Below the pieces are notes generated by a model. The model did not search any database, had not been told where the DNA came from, and saw only the letters and a list, made by a program, of their open reading frames with translations. Below, one piece after another: positions 132 to 22,104 of a stretch of 64,000 bases of DNA. Location: the IMG/VR virus record IMGVR_UViG_3300042483_000388, one strand, 5' to 3'. A program made the translations under genes and the position numbers. Position 1 is the stretch's first letter. Every line of letters begins with the position of its first letter. The stretch is from a virus. Lineage: Duplodnaviria > Caudoviricetes.

Positions 132-332
132 ATGGAAATAACAATTAACATACCCGATGGAGTTCTGAATAGATTGAAAGAACTTGAAATTACAGACGAA
201 AATATTCAAAAAGAAGTTCTAATTGATTTTATAAAAGATTCTTTGGATACAGATTACTTAAACGGTATGTCCGATAAATTCAGAAAATGGACATTAAATA
301 AAGAAAATATTAAAGTTTATTTGGCAGATTGA
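132..332 (+). CDS. hypothetical protein (66 aa)
   Basis: ORF-track 93..332 trimmed to ATG 132, just downstream of the promoter. Confidence 0.65.
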   Translation: MEITINIPDGVLNRLKELEITDENIQKEVLIDFIKDSLDTDYLNGMSDKFRKWTLNKENIKVYLAD

Positions 333-351
333 AATAAAATTCATAGATTTG
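320..351 (+). promoter_or_regulatory. Bacteroidota-type promoter driving the tRNA cluster
   Basis: TTTG 320-323, 20-nt spacer, TAGATTTG 344-351. Confidence 0.75.
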
Positions 352-532
352 TAAGAGAAACAACGGGGGTAGGAAGTGAGAGGTTGGTGTCCTACTCCCG
401 TGAAGAAAGAAGAAGTTCATTGAAATTAAAATATTGTGGTGGTAAGAAACGGGAAACTCGTAAAGTGCATTAACCTGTTGACATAAGATGGTGAAACGAG
501 AGTGTGTGTCAGCTACTTAACTACAAATAAAT

Positions 533-1925: not shown

Positions 1926-2195
1926 ATGAAAAAATTTGAAGATTTAGAGTTTGAAAAAATTGAAGACGCACCATTCCAAATTGGTGTGAAGTGTCGAATG
2001 GTGTTTGAAAATGGATACGGTGTATCTGTTGTTTCTCACACACATTCATATGGCGGAAGGAAAGGTTTGTTTGAAGTTGCCGTTTTGGGTAAAGACGGTG
2101 ATATAACCTACGACACTCCTGTGACAAACGATGTGATTGGGTACTTGAATCCTGACGATGTTACTGACATTATGAAACAAGTTCAAGAATTATAA
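1926..2195 (+). CDS. conserved phage hypothetical protein (89 aa)
   Basis: Start at ATG 1926 (MKKFEDLEF); F-x-NGYGVSV and GLFEVAVL motifs; the track extension overlaps tRNA-Asp. Confidence 0.8.
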   Translation: MKKFEDLEFEKIEDAPFQIGVKCRMVFENGYGVSVVSHTHSYGGRKGLFEVAVLGKDGDITYDTPVTNDVIGYLNPDDVTDIMKQVQEL

Positions 2196-2202
2196 AAAAA
2201 GA

Positions 2203-2233
2203 TTTGGTAGTTTAAATAAATTACCTATATTTG
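2203..2233 (+). promoter_or_regulatory. Bacteroidota-type promoter
   Basis: TTTG 2203-2206, 19-nt spacer, TATATTTG 2226-2233. Confidence 0.7.
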
Positions 2234-2267
2234 TATGAGTATTAACTAAATTAAAAAAAAAAGAAAA

Positions 2268-2489
2268 ATGGGAAAAGGATCTGACAGAGGACGTTACATT
2301 TGTAAAGTGGGTTTTTATGATATCTACGCAAAAGACTCGATGGTAAACATTAAAGACAGGGGAAACAAAAAACAAGTTGGGAGTACTGAGTATAACGTAT
2401 ACCACGCAAAAAGATTAGTAGAGAAAGGATTTAAGACTAAGGACCTTGCGGTCATTAAATCTAATGAACTTTTACTTAAAAAAAAATAA
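2268..2489 (+). CDS. hypothetical basic protein
   Basis: 73-aa ORF downstream of promoter, A-rich leader. Confidence 0.65.
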   Translation: MGKGSDRGRYICKVGFYDIYAKDSMVNIKDRGNKKQVGSTEYNVYHAKRLVEKGFKTKDLAVIKSNELLLKKK

Positions 2490-4357: not shown

Positions 4358-5176
4358 ATGGGTTTAAAAGTTTCAAGACAGGCATGTAATACTTCAGATC
4401 CTTGCTCCACTAATCCTGGTGTAAGCGGATGTATTAACGACTCAAATTTAAAATCGGTGGGTGTTGGTAGTCATAAACTACAAAAAGATGCTGCGGATGG
4501 TTTTATTAAGATGTACGCTGACATGCCTGCTGATATTAAAAGTTCGGTAAAATTATCGGATAGTTATAGACCATTAAAAGTTCAATGTAATATATTTGAT
4601 TTTGATCATTACGAAAGTACAGGTAAACGAAGAAAAAAAGGAACTAGTGGAACTCCTGTTGCAACACCAGGCGGATCAAACCATGGTTGGGGTAGAGCAA
4701 TTGATATATCCCCAAGTAATGTTCAAAAGTGGATTAAAGACAATGGAACAAAATATGGTTGGTGTTGGGGTGAAGTGAAATCAGAATCTTGGCATTTCAC
4801 ATTTTGCGGACCTGGACCAAATAGAGATAAAAACTGTGATAGCTTTTGTACAGGTAAAATGACTGTGAACACATCAACTAAAAGTTCATCTTCAGATGTA
4901 ACTGATAAAAAATCTGATACAACATCTTCAGATGTGACTGATAAAAAACCTGATACAACATCTTCAGATGTAACTGATAAAAAACCTGATACGGAAATAA
5001 AAACAAATGATAAAACAGATCCAGTTAACGATTTTGATTCCCTAATAAAAGATTTTGTTAGTTCAAAATTTAATATTCCCAAAAAAGATGAACCAAAAGA
5101 TAAAGAAGAAGTTGTTGCCGAAGGGTTAATACAAGAGATTTATAGAATTAAAGATATTATGAAAAAAATTCTTTAA
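4358..5176 (+). CDS. M15B/VanY-type Zn peptidase (peptidoglycan hydrolase) with Ser/Thr/Asp/Lys repeat linker
   Basis: DSYR, SNHGWGRAID (SxHxxGxAxD) and ESWH (ExxH) motifs. Confidence 0.85.
   Translation: MGLKVSRQACNTSDPCSTNPGVSGCINDSNLKSVGVGSHKLQKDAADGFIKMYADMPADIKSSVKLSDSYRPLKVQCNIFDFDHYESTGKRRKKGTSGTPVATPGGSNHGWGRAIDISPSNVQKWIKDNGTKYGWCWGEVKSESWHFTFCGPGPNRDKNCDSFCTGKMTVNTSTKSSSSDVTDKKSDTTSSDVTDKKPDTTSSDVTDKKPDTEIKTNDKTDPVNDFDSLIKDFVSSKFNIPKKDEPKDKEEVVAEGLIQEIYRIKDIMKKIL
4887..4992 (+). repeat. 36-nt in-frame tandem repeat x3 (SSDVTDKK[S/P]DT)
   Basis: CATCTTCAGATGT starts at 4887, 4923, 4959. Confidence 0.9.
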
Positions 5177-5234: not shown

Positions 5235-5393
5235 ATGAACGAAGGAATTAAAGAAATAGAGATGTATTATTACATCGTAAATGGTAAACAACTATGGACA
5301 TCAAATGAGTTATTTGCTCACATTAGAGCAAACCATTATGGATCAGAAAATGTTTATATTGAAAAAATAAACACATCAGATTTGACAAATTAA
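5235..5393 (+). CDS. small hypothetical protein (52 aa)
   Basis: MNEGIKEIEMYYYIVNGKQLW...; promoter variant TTTG 5181/TATCTTTT 5205 upstream. Confidence 0.55.
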   Translation: MNEGIKEIEMYYYIVNGKQLWTSNELFAHIRANHYGSENVYIEKINTSDLTN

Positions 5394-5512
5394 AATAAAG
5401 TCATTATCTTTGTAAGACAAATGAGGTAGATAACAGTTCAGACACAAGTCTCAAAAAAAAATAAAAAAGTTTAGAAAAAATTTGGAAAATTCAAAAAGTA
5501 TTCTTATCTTTG
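5381..5512 (+). promoter_or_regulatory. two tandem Bacteroidota-type promoters upstream of the large ncRNA
   Basis: TTTG 5381-5384/TATCTTTG 5405-5412 and TTTG 5481-5484/TATCTTTG 5505-5512, both with 20-nt spacers. Confidence 0.8.
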
Positions 5513-5516
5513 TAAA

Positions 5517-6425
5517 ACAAATCGGAAACGTCCGATAACGTTCTTTGAAAATTTAGATATTATCCGTTCAGGATTAGGTTAAGAACCTTCGGGTTTAAGA
5601 GTGAAACTGATAAAGATATTGGGCCGTGTATAGTCCATAAAATAAACTACGAAAGTAGGATAAAGTGAATCCACAAGTGTAACGGGTTTGCGTCTTAATA
5701 GTCTTCGGAATATTGAGGTCGAGTACACAGGCGAGATACCATAAGATCTTTAGTACCGAGGCCAACGGTGTAGGGAAAGTGATTTTATGACGAGGTGATG
5801 TGGGTCATCTTGTTGAGGAGGGAACTCCAATAGGAATAACTCGTAGGGACGTTGCAAGAATCAATATTTCCAATGTTGTTATTGCGGGTTCCAGTATCAA
5901 AGGATACTTAAAACCGAAAGGTATGTTAATGTACGGGTGGTGCCGTTATTAACCTTAACCGACTTCTACCAAGGGGTTAGTTTCGAAGTAGTCTTGAAAT
6001 ATTGAAATGGGGACATTTCACGGAGTTGTTTGGTATTTTGTTATTCAAAAGATAATGAAGCTTAAGACGGACCACAACTTTGATCAATCCACAACACAAA
6101 AACTTTTATAGAAAAGGTAAAACTTATAACTAAAAAGCAAAAGTGTTCGTCACGATATAACGGAAGTTACCCACCTATTCACTGGCTGTCAGTGGAACGT
6201 GATAACCGCAAGTTTGACCGTATTTTTATGAAAAATCTCTAGGTCGTCGAAGACCGAACCAGGACGCAATCTTGGGGAGACAGGAGTAGTAAGAGAGTAG
6301 TTGTATCGTCAAGGGGTGATTGGTCTAACCAATCGGTAATGAGTGTTACGGGACAAAATCCTGTGGATAAGAGTAGAACCAATAATGACTCGAAAGACAC
6401 TTACAAAAACTGTAATCTCAGGTTT
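5517..6425 (+). ncRNA. large (~900 nt) structured non-coding RNA, GOLLD/ROOL-like
   Basis: No ORF of 60 aa or more; visibly G/C-richer than flanks; many GNRA/UUCG hairpins (5584-5595, 5647-5658, 5817-5828, 5913-5922, 6003-6020, 6178-6197, 6318-6334); own promoters; ends at U-tract; near tRNAs and tmRNA. Confidence 0.75.
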
Positions 6426-6461
6426 TTATTTTTAACATAAACTTTAAATTTAATTGAAAGC

Positions 6462-6635
6462 ATGCAAAAATTAATTCTCTTATCTATTGCTATTTTTACG
6501 ACAATCACTCTTATGACTGCTTGTGGTGAAAACGGAAATGGAACAACAACTGAAGTTTCAAGTCAAGATGTAACAAACGTATCAGATTCTACTTTAACAA
6601 CAAGTGAAGTTGTTTCTGACACAACAAAAAAATAA
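6462..6635 (+). CDS. small lipoprotein (57 aa)
   Basis: MQK + hydrophobic core + MTA-C lipobox, then Ser/Thr-rich tail. Confidence 0.65.
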   Translation: MQKLILLSIAIFTTITLMTACGENGNGTTTEVSSQDVTNVSDSTLTTSEVVSDTTKK

Positions 6636-6650
6636 TTTTATATTATTTTA

Positions 6651-6681
6651 AAACGGAACCTACCTTTTGGTGGGTTTTTTT
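6651..6681 (+). terminator. intrinsic terminator
   Basis: AACCTACC-TTTT-GGTGGGTT followed by T-run. Confidence 0.7.
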
Positions 6682-6686
6682 GTGCT

Positions 6687-6731
6687 CTAAAATATAATAT
6701 TAGCGCAACACTAAAATATAATTATAGCGCA
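6687..6731. repeat. 21-nt direct repeat x2 (24-nt period)
   Basis: CTAAAATATAATATTAGCGCA 6687-6707 and CTAAAATATAATTATAGCGCA 6711-6731. Confidence 0.8.
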
Positions 6732-6760: not shown

Positions 6761-6769
6761 AATATAAGG

Positions 6770-7166
6770 TGGAGGTGCGGAGGCTCGAACTCCGGTCCAT
6801 AATATCCTGTCAGAGAAGGACTACACGTTTAGGTCAAGGTTTGTCATACCTTCCGAAATATCTGAGTTCTCACACCACTCAGCGACGGTGGTAGTTCTTA
6901 CGGGGAACCACGCCCGTTTTGTCCTCTTTTAGAGTGAAAACCAACTCATCAACGACTTCTGTTGCTAGGTTATCTGTCTGACCGACCCCCCGTTTCCGTA
7001 AACCTCTTAGGCTACAGTAACTTCAGAACCTCTTAGTAAACCAAGAGTTTCCATTTTCGATAAAACGTCGCCGATTGTTTTTGTGAATCAGTTTTTAAGG
7101 AGATTAATTCAGTCTCCACGTGCCCTTTGTCTTCAGCCAATACCTGTCAAATCCAAAAACACCCCC
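6770..7166 (-). ncRNA. ssrA: tmRNA
   Basis: 5' GGGGGTG..GGATTTGAC; 3' CGGAG-TTCGAGC-CTCCG-CACCTCC-A; G3.U70 Ala identity; tag ORF 7072..7007 encodes GDVLSKMETLGLLRGSEVTVA*. Confidence 0.93.
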
Positions 7167-21219: not shown

Positions 21220-21936
21220 ATGAATTTCGGAGAATTAAAATCAAAAATAGAGGTCTGTTTGTCAGAATCTTATAAGAAGAATAACTTAAAGAAAGATCTT
21301 TTCGTATTTAACGAACTGGTCTTGAAGAATAAAAATATTTCAAAAATATTCTTTCTTTATGATGAATTGTCTAAAAACAAGGGATTGTCTGAGTCAATTG
21401 CAAATGAATACATTAATGGGTCTATAACGGCTTACGAAAATACTGTTAACAAAATATCGTTAAAAGAGATTAAAGAATTAAAGTATTGGATTGGTCACAT
21501 TATTTGTGAAAATGAATATAAAAATATTGATAATTTATTTTCAACAAACTTTTTAGTTTTAGAAAATAAAATTAAAAGTAAAAAACTTATTTCTGAAAAC
21601 TTAAGACAAACAGAAAAAGAAATAAAAGATGTGATCAATGTTCCTTTAAAGTCGATGATTAATGTGGCAAATAAAACGGTAAAAAATTTTATTTCTAGCC
21701 TGAACGAGTCTGAACAAAAAGAATTAAATAAAATATTATCTACACCAAAAAATATTTTGGTTAAAAAATACGACAAAATTAAAGATGATGTTAAGGAAAA
21801 ATTGGAAGATAGAAGACTAACAGAATCTGACGACGAAACTGTAAACACTATTGATAAAGTTTTAGGTAGATTACAAACAGAATCTTTTAATGAACTTAAT
21901 CTTTATAAGTTGATTAAGTTATCAGACTCTCTTTAA
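21220..21936 (+). CDS. helical head-module protein (prohead core-like)
   Basis: Between portal and protease; repeated LSES/LNES/LTES sites. Confidence 0.6.
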   Translation: MNFGELKSKIEVCLSESYKKNNLKKDLFVFNELVLKNKNISKIFFLYDELSKNKGLSESIANEYINGSITAYENTVNKISLKEIKELKYWIGHIICENEYKNIDNLFSTNFLVLENKIKSKKLISENLRQTEKEIKDVINVPLKSMINVANKTVKNFISSLNESEQKELNKILSTPKNILVKKYDKIKDDVKEKLEDRRLTESDDETVNTIDKVLGRLQTESFNELNLYKLIKLSDSL

Positions 21937-22104
21937 TTTTTGGGTATAAATTGCTTTTTGGATCTCCGATCTTCTTTTAATAGATTTTTTGGTAAATTCT
22001 TTTCCATTAAATAATTTAGCATTTTGTTTTGTTCTTATCACTTTTCCTTTAAGTTCTTTTAGGGATTTATCAATATTTCCCTTTTTTACCACTACAATTA
22101 ACAT
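21922..22104 (-). CDS. rpsU: phage-encoded ribosomal protein bS21
   Basis: MLIVVVKKGNIDKSLKELK...EFTKKSIKRRSEIQKAIY follows the Bacteroidota bS21 pattern (IDxxLKxxK; FTKxSxxRRxExxKA). Confidence 0.85.
   Translation of the reverse strand: MLIVVVKKGNIDKSLKELKGKVIRTKQNAKLFNGKEFTKKSIKRRSEIQKAIYTQKLKRV

What the first reader, a model, noticed from the sequence alone, without database searches (positions are those of the whole stretch)
5517..6425. ~900-nt ORF-free, ornately structured phage RNA with two dedicated host-type promoters
Seen: no ORF of 60 aa or more. The region is G/C-richer than its flanks and dense in GNRA/UUCG-capped hairpins (e.g. AACC-TTCG-GGTT 5584, CTAC-GAAA-GTAG 5647, GGAG-GGAA-CTCC 5817, TGAAATG-GGGA-CATTTCA 6003, GATTGGT/ACCAATC 6318). 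An A-rich linker (~6090-6140) splits it into two domains. Two perfect Bacteroidota promoters lie 100 nt apart upstream, and a U-tract follows. Known: GOLLD and ROOL are giant phage-associated RNAs of unknown function found near tRNA genes, and are reported to form multimeric RNA cages. Inference: this is a GOLLD-like or new large RNA, expressed early and strongly by host RNA polymerase, alongside tRNAs, tmRNA and bS21 in a translation-control toolkit.
Basis: partly seen in the sequence, partly recalled or inferred. Interest (0 to 1): 0.85.

Follow-up and report, generated by a model that had tools for sequence, protein, structure and literature searches.

The report
GOLLD RNA with rRNA-style leader
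The 900-base gene-free stretch is a full-length copy of the already known giant phage RNA called GOLLD, here in a T4-like lake phage of Bacteroidota, and it sits behind a control region copied from the host's ribosomal-RNA operons.

Summary
Window 5517-6425 (+) has no ORF of 60 aa or more, is richer in G+C than its flanks, and is heavily structured.

Its 3' half (6021-6424) matches the whole Rfam GOLLD model at 287 bits (threshold 150). Its 5' half (5517-6020) has no Rfam model. It is conserved in about 40 IMG/VR phage contigs and in the 635-kb phage LR745206. Fifty of its 108 predicted base pairs show compensatory changes.

So this is a member of a known family, not a new class.

- **Leader.** All 29 distinct homologs start with a Bacteroidota promoter, a covarying hairpin and an invariant GTTCTTTGAAA. 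That motif (up to 1 mismatch) lies upstream of 16S rRNA in 60 of 101 loci sampled with a Bacteroidota-type 16S pattern. It resembles the NusB-binding boxA of B. subtilis. I infer rRNA-type antitermination and chaperoned folding.
- **Expression.** Sixteen freshwater metatranscriptome runs hold about 70-77% of the RNA's sampled words. In four of the five runs compared, they hold almost none of its flanks.
- **Mosaicism.** The 5' and 3' parts recombine among phages.

Function remains unknown; a self-assembling RNA cage is inferred from published GOLLD structures. This scan noted a GOLLD behind a boxA leader before, on other DNA (e1-2366704).

The parts
5381..5412 (+). Distal promoter-like site P1 (TTTG-N20-TATCTTTG)
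   Evidence: Exact pattern match. It is present only in a subset of homologs and in LR745206. In several relatives it is a tandem duplicate of P2 together with the leader hairpin.
5413..5480 (+). Spacer between P1 and P2, with a small hairpin AGAC-ACAA-GTCT followed by an A-run
   Evidence: The promoter-to-promoter region (5405-5521) is 78.8% identical to the otherwise divergent phage LR745206. The hairpin changes to AGAT/ATCT there. Its function is unknown.
5481..5512 (+). Proximal promoter P2 of Bacteroidota type (TTTG-N20-TATCTTTG); inferred transcription start near 5517-5520
   Evidence: Exact pattern match. The TAnnTTTG element and a (T/C)TTG element are conserved in all 29 distinct homologs. 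The start site is inferred from motif spacing, not measured.
5517..5552 (+). rrn-like leader: 5' hairpin (5521-5536) followed by the boxA-like GTTCTTTGAAA (5540-5550)
   Evidence: The motif is invariant in all 29 homologs (columns G27-A37). The hairpin stem covaries: AUCGGA/UCCGAU, UCAGGA/UCCUGA, UUCGGA/UCCGAA. The same motif and layout occur in Bacteroidota 16S leaders and in LR745206, 510 nt before its 3' domain.
5553..5618 (+). Variable insert of the 5' domain, including the AACC-TTCG-GGTT hairpin (5584-5595)
   Evidence: Homologs replace it with other hairpins or lack it altogether (alignment columns 39-136).
5619..6020 (+). Conserved core of the GOLLD 5' domain: a multi-stem structure of about 18 helices
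   Evidence: The 5' domain as a whole (columns up to 6020) has 108 predicted pairs, 98.8% of cells canonical and 50 pairs with compensatory changes. Sliding the partner column by 1-3 gives 6-12. An nhmmer profile of it finds LR745206 at E 5e-55.
6021..6424 (+). GOLLD 3' domain (the Rfam RF02032 model)
   Evidence: 287 bits against a gathering score of 150, covering model positions 1-416 of 416. It has 77 predicted pairs, 37 of them with compensatory changes, against 4-13 when the partner is slid.
6083..6150 (+). A-rich variable linker inside the 3' domain
   Evidence: It aligns to the unpaired, poorly conserved model positions of about 62-137. Its length and sequence vary among homologs. In the published structure the equivalent linker is disordered and points into the cage (PMC12286853).
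6242..6275 (+). Two adjacent hairpins with self-complementary loop dinucleotides (candidate L21a and L21b kissing loops)
   Evidence: The first loop reads GUCGAA (CG) in 20 of 29 sequences and CGCAA (GC) in 9. The second always holds GC. PMC12286853 reports the same GC/CG switch for the inter-chain bridge B8, at nt 656-657 of env-38. The helix numbering is mapped here by position only.
6425..6433 (+). U-rich tract after the last hairpin; possible 3' end
   Evidence: It is T-rich in 27 of 29 homologs. The terminator scan did not call it. The stem is only 3 bp, plus a possible A/U extension.

Best explanation
Window 5517-6425 (+) encodes a full-length GOLLD RNA of about 908 nt in a T4-like phage that most likely infects a freshwater member of Bacteroidota.

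**Shown.**
- It belongs to the GOLLD family.
- Both domains are conserved and show covariation.
- A host-type promoter is conserved in every homolog.
- The leader consists of a hairpin followed by GTTCTTTGAAA, the motif found upstream of 16S rRNA genes in Bacteroidota.
- The RNA is present in lake metatranscriptomes.

**Inferred.**
1. Host RNA polymerase starts at the proximal promoter. The nascent hairpin-boxA leader recruits NusB/S10 and the other Nus factors, as on an rRNA operon. This makes the elongation complex resistant to Rho on this long untranslated transcript and helps the RNA fold as it is made. I put this at about 55%.
2. The finished RNA assembles with copies of itself into a closed cage, as shown by cryo-EM for other GOLLD RNAs. 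The 5' domains form the caps, the 3' domains form the ring, and the A-rich linker points inside. I put this at about 70%.
3. The cage acts on the translation apparatus during infection, in step with the phage's tRNAs, tmRNA and bS21. This is speculative, at about 25%.
For: **Family membership.** RF02032 scores 287 bits, E 6e-81, over the full model.

**Homologs.** 42 IMG/VR contigs carry the exact 3' motif. Identity to the window is 70-98% in the 5' half and 67-100% in the 3' half.

**Structure.** RNAalifold predicts 189 pairs, 87 of them with compensatory changes. My control found 50 compensatory pairs in the 5' domain against 6-12 after sliding the partner, and 37 against 4-13 in the 3' domain. 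The fold favours the + strand.

**Phage context.** T4-type large terminase and portal, plus tRNAs and a tmRNA.

**Leader.**
- GTTCTTTGAAA is invariant in 29 of 29 homologs.
- In 101 16S upstream regions, from loci found with a Bacteroidota-type 16S pattern, the motif with up to 1 mismatch occurs in 60 (17 exact). The reverse strand gives 2 and shuffles give 0.85. The median position is -145.
- Host leaders show the same order of TAnnTTTG promoter, hairpin, boxA.
- B. subtilis rrn leaders have a 5' hairpin followed by AUGAUCUUUGAAA, which binds NusB (PMC13753749).
- The window's tRNA operon has the same layout: promoter 320-351, hairpin 364-400, GTTCATTGAAA at 415.
- LR745206 has hairpin plus GTTCTTTGAAA at the 5' edge of its homologous 5' domain.

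**Expression.** RNA runs hold 0.44-0.49 of 150 sampled words for 5300-6700. The same runs hold 0.68-0.77 of 90 words for 5517-6424 alone. In X16, X17, X18 and X20 the held words therefore nearly all lie inside the RNA. Sixteen RNA runs hold it, some of only 7-52 million letters.

**Cage.** GOLLD env-38 forms a 14-mer and the S. agalactiae GOLLD 3' domain mainly a 10-mer (PMC12286853, PMC12990946). The GC/CG switch in the candidate L21a loop is present here.
Against: - No read-level mapping was obtained.
- The missing flank words in RNA runs could partly reflect strain divergence of the flanks rather than transcript boundaries.
- boxA function is inferred from sequence and position only.
- No boxA-like motif lies within 1300 nt upstream of the GOLLD 3' domain in phiCbK, PegLeg, PG07 or DSS3P8. 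The leader is therefore not a general GOLLD feature.
- The invariant motif could instead be held constant by a role in the RNA's own fold.
- Cage stoichiometry differs between GOLLD RNAs that differ in their helices (PMC12990946). The assembly state of this one cannot be predicted.
- The host is not identified. No match was found in 185,579 species genomes.
Confidence: 0.9

Rival explanations
1. The GTTCTTTGAAA motif and its hairpin are simply part of the GOLLD fold or a processing site. They do not recruit Nus factors, and the resemblance to the host's rRNA leader is coincidental.
For: Four GOLLD-bearing phages of other phyla have no boxA-like motif within 1300 nt upstream of the 3' domain. 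The motif is A/U-rich in an A/T-rich genome, and 1-mismatch matches in the window as a whole occur at the chance rate: 5 found against 4.9 expected. RNAalifold leaves the motif unpaired, but tertiary contacts cannot be seen this way.
Against: The motif is invariant in 29 of 29 homologs while the sequence right after it is replaced or deleted. It sits in the same order (promoter, hairpin, motif) and at a similar distance as in host 16S leaders: 60 of 101 against 2 on the reverse strand. The same layout precedes the window's tRNA operon and two stable-RNA units of LR745206.
Confidence: 0.35
2. The two halves are separate RNAs: a known GOLLD 3' domain at 6021-6424, plus an unrelated upstream structured RNA or long leader at 5517-6020.
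For: Rfam models only the 3' half. The identities of the 5' and 3' halves are uncoupled between phages. For example, L014 is 84.6% identical in the 5' core but 99.3% in the 3' domain.
Against: There is no promoter-like site or terminator between the halves. The halves are contiguous, with constant spacing, in all 29 distinct homologs and in LR745206. Published GOLLD RNAs have exactly this build: a variable 5' domain of about 420 nt and a conserved 3' domain that form separate modules of one chain (PMC12286853). The recombination breakpoint in L014 lies inside the 5' domain (near 5890), not at the border.
Confidence: 0.05
3. The region is not a functional RNA gene. It would be a degenerate coding region, a self-splicing intron, an rRNA fragment or a chance run of hairpins.
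For: A single-sequence fold z-score of -2.3 is modest on its own.
Against: A permissive Rfam scan gave only GOLLD, plus one sub-threshold snoRNA match that lies outside the region. There is no ORF of 60 aa or more. Covariation is extensive and strand-specific. The RNA is present in many metatranscriptomes.
Confidence: 0.01

Closest known systems
GOLLD RNA (Rfam RF02032; Weinberg et al. 2009, cited from my own knowledge; cryo-EM of env-38 in PMC12286853)
   Same: Full-length match to the 3'-domain model. An unresolved variable linker follows the first 3' hairpin. A large multi-stem 5' domain precedes it. It is carried by a phage close to tRNA genes. The candidate self-kissing loop shows the published GC/CG switch. 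Total length of about 900 nt compares with 833 nt for env-38.
   Different: Nothing that excludes membership. Specific to this clade: a Bacteroidota promoter, an rrn-like hairpin-boxA leader at the 5' end, a lineage-specific insert at 5553-5618, and no tRNA inside the linker. The published alignment lists Caulobacter, Vibrio, Roseobacter and Mycobacterium phages. Its matches in Bacteroides and Flavobacterium genomes, as far as they were shown, are short, of 149-289 nt.
rRNA operon leader with boxA (E. coli UGCUCUUUAACA; B. subtilis 5' hairpin plus AUGAUCUUUGAAA, PMC13753749)
   Same: The order is promoter, small 5' hairpin, then a boxA-like motif. The motif matches B. subtilis GAUCUUUGAAA at 10 of 11 positions. 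With up to 1 mismatch it occurs upstream of 16S in 60 of 101 loci sampled with a Bacteroidota-type 16S pattern.
   Different: No rRNA follows it. No second boxA lies between the domains. boxC was not examined. No binding or antitermination data exist.
ROOL RNA (PMC5737381, PMC12286853)
   Same: A large ornate phage-associated RNA found near tRNAs. It also forms a homo-oligomeric cage.
   Different: The sequence and fold are unrelated, and there was no Rfam ROOL hit here. In ROOL the 5' and 3' parts are intertwined, whereas here they are modular and recombine.
GOLLD of the 635-kb uncultured phage LR745206.1
   Same: GOLLD at 287.3 bits. It has a homologous 5' domain starting at hairpin plus GTTCTTTGAAA (E 5e-55) and the same tandem promoter module at about 80% identity.
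   Different: A tRNA gene lies between the promoters and the boxA leader. blastn does not detect its RNA body.

Membership tests
GOLLD RNA (RF02032) | Covariance-model score at or above the curated gathering score (150 bits) over the conserved 3' domain | tested here: met
   287 bits, E 5.8e-81, model positions 1-416 of 416, + strand, at 6021-6424.
GOLLD RNA (RF02032) | 3'-domain helices supported by covariation, including the long-range helix that encloses the multi-stem core | tested here: met
   77 pairs, 98.5% of cells canonical, 37 pairs with compensatory changes. In the helix 6152-6161/6300-6309, 8 of 10 pairs covary.
GOLLD RNA (RF02032) | A variable, unstructured linker inside the 3' region | tested here: met
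   6083-6150 aligns to unpaired model columns at low posterior probability. It varies in length and sequence among homologs.
GOLLD RNA (RF02032) | A large, less conserved 5' domain on the same transcript | tested here: met
   5517-6020: 108 pairs, 50 with compensatory changes. It is contiguous with the 3' domain in all homologs. It was not aligned to the published P1-P13 consensus, because that alignment could not be brought into the tools.
GOLLD RNA (RF02032) | Located in a phage or prophage, often near tRNA genes | tested here: met
   T4-type terminase and portal. Six tRNAs lie 3.6-5 kb upstream and a tmRNA 340 nt downstream. tRNA arrays are seen near the RNA in a subset of related loci.
GOLLD RNA (RF02032) | Self-complementary kissing loops that bridge chains (L21a GC/CG switch, L21b conserved) | tested here: met
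   The loop at 6246-6251 holds CG in 20 sequences and GC in 9. The next loop always holds GC. The published switch is at nt 656-657 of env-38. Correspondence of the helices is judged by position only.
GOLLD RNA (RF02032) | Assembly into a homo-oligomeric nanocage | not testable with these tools
   Needs mass photometry or cryo-EM of the transcript.
rrn-type antitermination leader (boxA / Nus factors) | A boxA sequence matching that of the host group's rRNA operons | tested here: met
   GTTCTTTGAAA with up to 1 mismatch occurs in 60 of 101 16S upstream regions from loci found with a Bacteroidota-type pattern (17 exact). The reverse strand gives 2 and shuffles 0.85.
rrn-type antitermination leader (boxA / Nus factors) | The promoter-proximal order: promoter, hairpin, boxA | tested here: met
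   Promoter 5481-5512, hairpin 5521-5536, boxA 5540-5550. Host leaders show the same order, with 5-98 nt between the promoter and boxA.
rrn-type antitermination leader (boxA / Nus factors) | Binding of NusB-S10 and resistance to Rho-dependent termination | not testable with these tools
   Needs biochemistry or genetics in a Bacteroidota host.
rrn-type antitermination leader (boxA / Nus factors) | A boxC element or a second spacer boxA | tested here: not met
   No second copy of the motif lies inside 5551-6425. boxC was not examined, because no Bacteroidota consensus is known to me.

The most novel reading that the evidence does not exclude
In Bacteroidota phages, GOLLD and the phage tRNA operons are transcribed as mock rRNA operons. 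The host's rRNA promoter type, 5' hairpin and boxA load the Nus antitermination and chaperone complex onto RNA polymerase. This loading would be required to make and fold the 900-nt cage RNA, which becomes one of the most abundant phage RNAs in lake water. A bolder version holds that the leader also draws S10, NusB and S4 away from host ribosome synthesis.
Probability: 0.3. Interest if true: 0.55.

Novelty: new member of a known kind. Interest (0 to 1): 0.4.

Why it matters
The function of GOLLD has stayed unknown since it was first described in 2009, even though its cage structure is now solved. This locus does not answer that question, but it offers three practical handles.

1. **A rich comparative set.** There are 29 distinct sequences that include the 5' domain, which Rfam does not model. 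The set also contains natural 5'/3' chimeras. These could test which contacts between the domains, and between chains, must co-evolve.
2. **A concrete hypothesis about expression.** An rRNA-type boxA leader may drive synthesis and folding of the RNA. This can be tested with purified NusB-S10 and with reporter constructs. The held literature does not connect GOLLD with antitermination.
3. **Evidence of abundance in nature.** The RNA is plentiful in freshwater metatranscriptomes. It could therefore be studied in environmental samples before the host is cultured.

Tried and rejected
There is therefore no read-level view of transcript ends.
- **blastn of 5400-6440 against 50,697 phage records** found only the promoter module of LR745206 and not its GOLLD body. 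blastn is too insensitive for this RNA.
- **The exact 3' motif is absent from 185,579 species genomes**, so there is no prophage copy and no host clue.
- **No whole genome is held for the window**.
- **The published GOLLD Stockholm alignment** could be listed but not searched for motifs. Gapped rows gave no matches, and helix labels are not in the held supplements. The 5' domain therefore could not be mapped onto the published P1-P13 numbering.
- **The 2009 discovery paper is not held**.
- **A recoded genetic code was considered**, because LR745206 is a megaphage, and rejected. Table 11 already gives 54.7 kb of long ORFs in the 64-kb window, and TAG=Q adds little.
- **boxA as a general GOLLD feature is rejected for now.** No boxA-like motif lies within 1300 nt upstream of the 3' domain in phiCbK, PegLeg, PG07 or DSS3P8.
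- **RNAalifold's 4-bp helix joining the RNA's two ends** (5515-5518 with 6422-6425) has no covariation, and I do not rely on it.
- **The count of structure pairs was not used**, because it would have needed a typed 973-character structure. The same counts and slid-partner controls were computed in Python.

Full report
**What is there**

Window 5517-6425 has no ORF of 60 aa or more on either strand; the longest are 56, 53 and 50 aa. Its G+C content is 0.38-0.43, against 0.24-0.33 in the flanks.

A scan of the whole window against Rfam 15 places the complete GOLLD model (RF02032, positions 1-416 of 416) on 6021-6424, + strand. The score is 287 bits against a gathering score of 150, with E 5.8e-81. 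A permissive scan of 5350-6500 adds nothing inside the region.

The + strand folds better than its shuffles (-236.4 kcal/mol, z -2.3). The - strand does not (z -0.8).

**The 5' half is part of the same conserved RNA**

Rfam models only the 3' half of GOLLD. To study the rest, I scanned IMG/VR for an exact 3'-end motif taken from the window. This found 42 phage contigs of up to 321 kb.

BLAST of the window's two halves against these contigs gives 70-98% identity for 5517-6020 and 67-100% for 6021-6424. An alignment of the 29 distinct full-length sequences (A2) has 82% mean column identity.

RNAalifold predicts 189 pairs on A2, and 87 of them show compensatory changes. I checked this with my own counts.

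| Domain | Predicted pairs | Cells canonical | Pairs with compensatory changes | Same count after sliding the partner 1-3 columns |
|---|---|---|---|---|
| 5' | 108 | 98.8% | 50 | 6-12 (33-45% canonical) |
| 3' | 77 | 98.5% | 37 | 4-13 |

The structure was derived from this same alignment, so part of the contrast is built in. The size of the gap and the many G-U pairs still make the + strand fold convincing.

- 5647-5658 and 5817-5828 covary at 3 of 4 and 4 of 4 pairs.
- 6004-6019 covaries at 2 of 6 pairs.
- The UUCG hairpin at 5584-5595 sits in an insert (5553-5618) that other lineages replace or lack.

A profile of the 5' domain also finds the 635-kb uncultured phage LR745206 at E 5e-55. That phage's GOLLD scores 287.3 bits.

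**Genomic setting**

The window is phage DNA.
- T4-type large terminase (PF03237) and portal (PF07230, E 3.5e-77).
- A ClpB-like AAA+ protein.
- Six tRNA genes at 534-1900.
- A tmRNA at 6767-7166 on the minus strand.
- A bS21-like ORF at 21922-22104, at the Pfam threshold.

Table 11 fits the coding density. The runs that hold the DNA are lake-water metagenomes.

This setting is typical for GOLLD. tRNA arrays lie near the RNA in a subset of related contigs. Mycobacteriophage PegLeg also has a tmRNA beside its GOLLD.

**The control region**

Two exact matches to the Bacteroidota promoter pattern TTTG-N(17-21)-TAnnTTTG lie at 5381-5412 and 5481-5512. The window holds 12 such matches against 4.6 expected.

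The proximal promoter is conserved in every homolog. The distal one occurs only in a subset, and in some relatives it is a plain tandem duplicate of the proximal promoter plus the first hairpin.

All 29 RNAs begin in the same way: AAAACAAAU, then a hairpin (5521-5536) whose stem covaries, then an invariant GTTCTTTGAAA at 5540-5550.

- A scan of species genomes with a Bacteroidota-type 16S 5' end returned 120 loci, and 101 of them had at least 300 nt of upstream sequence.
- The motif, with up to one mismatch, occurs in 60 of the 101 (17 exact). The reverse strand gives 2 and shuffles give 0.85. The median position is 145 nt before the pattern.
- Host examples show the same order of TAnnTTTG promoter, hairpin(s), then (A/C)GTTCTTTGAAA. 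Lake Sediminibacterium and Chitinophagaceae genomes are among them.
- B. subtilis rrn leaders likewise start with a small hairpin followed by AUGAUCUUUGAAA, which binds NusB (PMC13753749).
- The window's tRNA operon has the same build: promoter 320-351, hairpin 364-400, GTTCATTGAAA at 415.
- LR745206 has hairpin plus GTTCTTTGAAA 510 nt before its 3' domain, exactly where its homologous 5' domain starts.

I found no paper in the held library that links GOLLD with antitermination.

The feature is not general to GOLLD. Four GOLLD phages of Proteobacteria and Actinobacteria have no such motif within 1300 nt upstream of the 3' domain. This scan had, however, already noted a GOLLD-plus-tRNA array behind a boxA leader in another genome (e1-2366704). 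I did not re-test that case.

**Expression**

For the 1401-nt stretch 5300-6700, DNA runs hold 84-97% of 150 sampled words, while metatranscriptome runs hold 44-49%. For the 908-nt RNA alone, the same RNA runs hold 68-77% of 90 words.

Converted to counts, X16 holds 69 words in both searches, X17 holds 69 and 68, X18 holds 68 and 68, and X20 holds 66 and 66. Almost every held word therefore lies inside the RNA and almost none in the flanks. X15 is the exception, with about 12 flank words.

Sixteen runs on record as RNA hold the stretch; the 21 holding rows of that search span 15 studies. Several are very small, at 7-52 million letters. This argues for an abundant RNA and against carried-over DNA.

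Two limits apply. Contigs cannot show ends or strand. Flank words could also be missing because related strains differ more in the flanks than in the RNA.

**Modularity**

Identity to the window is uncoupled between the two halves.

| Homolog | 5' core identity | 3' domain identity |
|---|---|---|
| L014 | 84.6% | 99.3% |
| L025 | 80.5% | 95.5% |
| L033 | 84.5% | 63.8% |

Of 406 sequence pairs, 171 differ by 12 points or more between the halves. In L014, identity jumps from about 75% to 97-100% near alignment column 420, which is window position about 5890.

Recombination therefore shuffles parts of this RNA among phages. This fits the published finding that the 5' and 3' regions form separate three-dimensional modules (PMC12286853).

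**How it probably works**

Published cryo-EM shows GOLLD env-38 as a closed 14-mer. The S. agalactiae GOLLD 3' domain is mainly a 10-mer. In env-38 the 5' domains form the caps, the 3' domains form the ring, and the linker lies inside (PMC12286853, PMC12990946).

The window's RNA keeps the features I could check. It has the full 3' domain, the linker, and two adjacent loops with self-complementary dinucleotides. The first loop switches between CG (20 sequences) and GC (9), as reported for the inter-shell bridge B8.

My proposal is as follows. Host RNA polymerase starts at P2. The hairpin-boxA leader loads the Nus complex, which protects this long untranslated transcript from Rho and acts as a folding chaperone, as described for rRNA (PMC8632103). 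The RNA then self-assembles into a cage.

What the cage does is unknown. A role in translation during infection is suggested only by its neighbours and by a pull-down of ribosomes mentioned in PMC12286853.

**Verdict**

This is a new member of a known family, so the basic finding is not novel.

The added value has four parts: the rRNA-style leader, the attribution of a large lake GOLLD clade to T4-like phages that use Bacteroidota signals, the comparative data on the 5' domain, and the evidence of high abundance in nature.

Noticed in passing
window 320-425 (+): The tRNA operon leader has the same build as the GOLLD leader: a Bacteroidota promoter (320-351), an 11-bp hairpin (364-400), then GTTCATTGAAA (415-425). 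That variant of the motif also occurs upstream of 16S in several Flavobacteriaceae.
   Followed up: partly
window 6767-7166 (-): Phage tmRNA: Rfam RF00023 at 97 bits against a gathering score of 47. ARAGORN misses it. In the related contig L032, ARAGORN finds a tmRNA in the same position and orientation (1947-2348, minus strand) with the long tag GNVLNKMEAIGLIRTSEVTVA.
   Followed up: partly
window 21922-22104 (-): A 60-aa basic ORF matches Ribosomal_S21 (PF01165) at 27.3 bits, just at the cut-off of 27. It is a phage-encoded bS21 candidate, 16 kb from the GOLLD gene.
   Followed up: partly
window 5405-5521 and L001 3001-3108: The tandem promoter module, including the roughly 70-nt spacer between P1 and P2, is 78.8% identical to the 635-kb phage LR745206, although blastn cannot align the two GOLLD bodies. 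The spacer hairpin AGAC/GTCT becomes AGAT/ATCT. It may be a small leader RNA or a regulatory site.
   Followed up: no
L001 3284-3356 (LR745206.1): In the megaphage, a tRNA gene sits between the tandem promoters and the hairpin-boxA start of GOLLD. tRNA and GOLLD are therefore probably co-transcribed there. A second promoter-hairpin-GTTCTTTGAAT leader at about 2800-2840 precedes another tRNA.
   Followed up: partly
L014 versus window, alignment A2 column about 420 (window about 5890): There is an abrupt switch from about 75% to 97-100% identity inside the 5' domain. This is a recombination breakpoint within the RNA gene. Natural 5'/3' chimeras are common in this clade.
   Followed up: partly
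L008 10863-10937; L003 5643-5733; L005 1198-1288: Related phage contigs carry a tRNA with anticodon UUA, which would read the stop codon UAA. They also carry 91-nt tRNA-like genes for which ARAGORN reports a four-base anticodon (ctta). These are possible suppressor or frameshift tRNAs.
   Followed up: no
window 6462-6635 (+) and 6655-6678: A 57-aa ORF with a lipoprotein-like signal (hydrophobic N-terminus followed by Cys) starts 37 nt after GOLLD. A canonical hairpin-plus-T-run terminator follows it. The ORF has only a weak sub-threshold Pfam match (DUF4969, 18.6 bits against a cut-off of 31.4).
   Followed up: partly
L165 (Mycobacterium phage PegLeg, NC_021299.1 54674-56259): PegLeg also has a tmRNA and tRNAs directly upstream of its GOLLD 3' domain. 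The pairing of GOLLD with tmRNA thus recurs in an unrelated phage lineage.
   Followed up: no
window 4358-5176 (+): The ORF upstream of the GOLLD locus is a VanY/M15-type peptidase (PF02557, E 2.9e-12). It also matches a peptidase segment of a tape-measure protein family in PHROGs.
   Followed up: no
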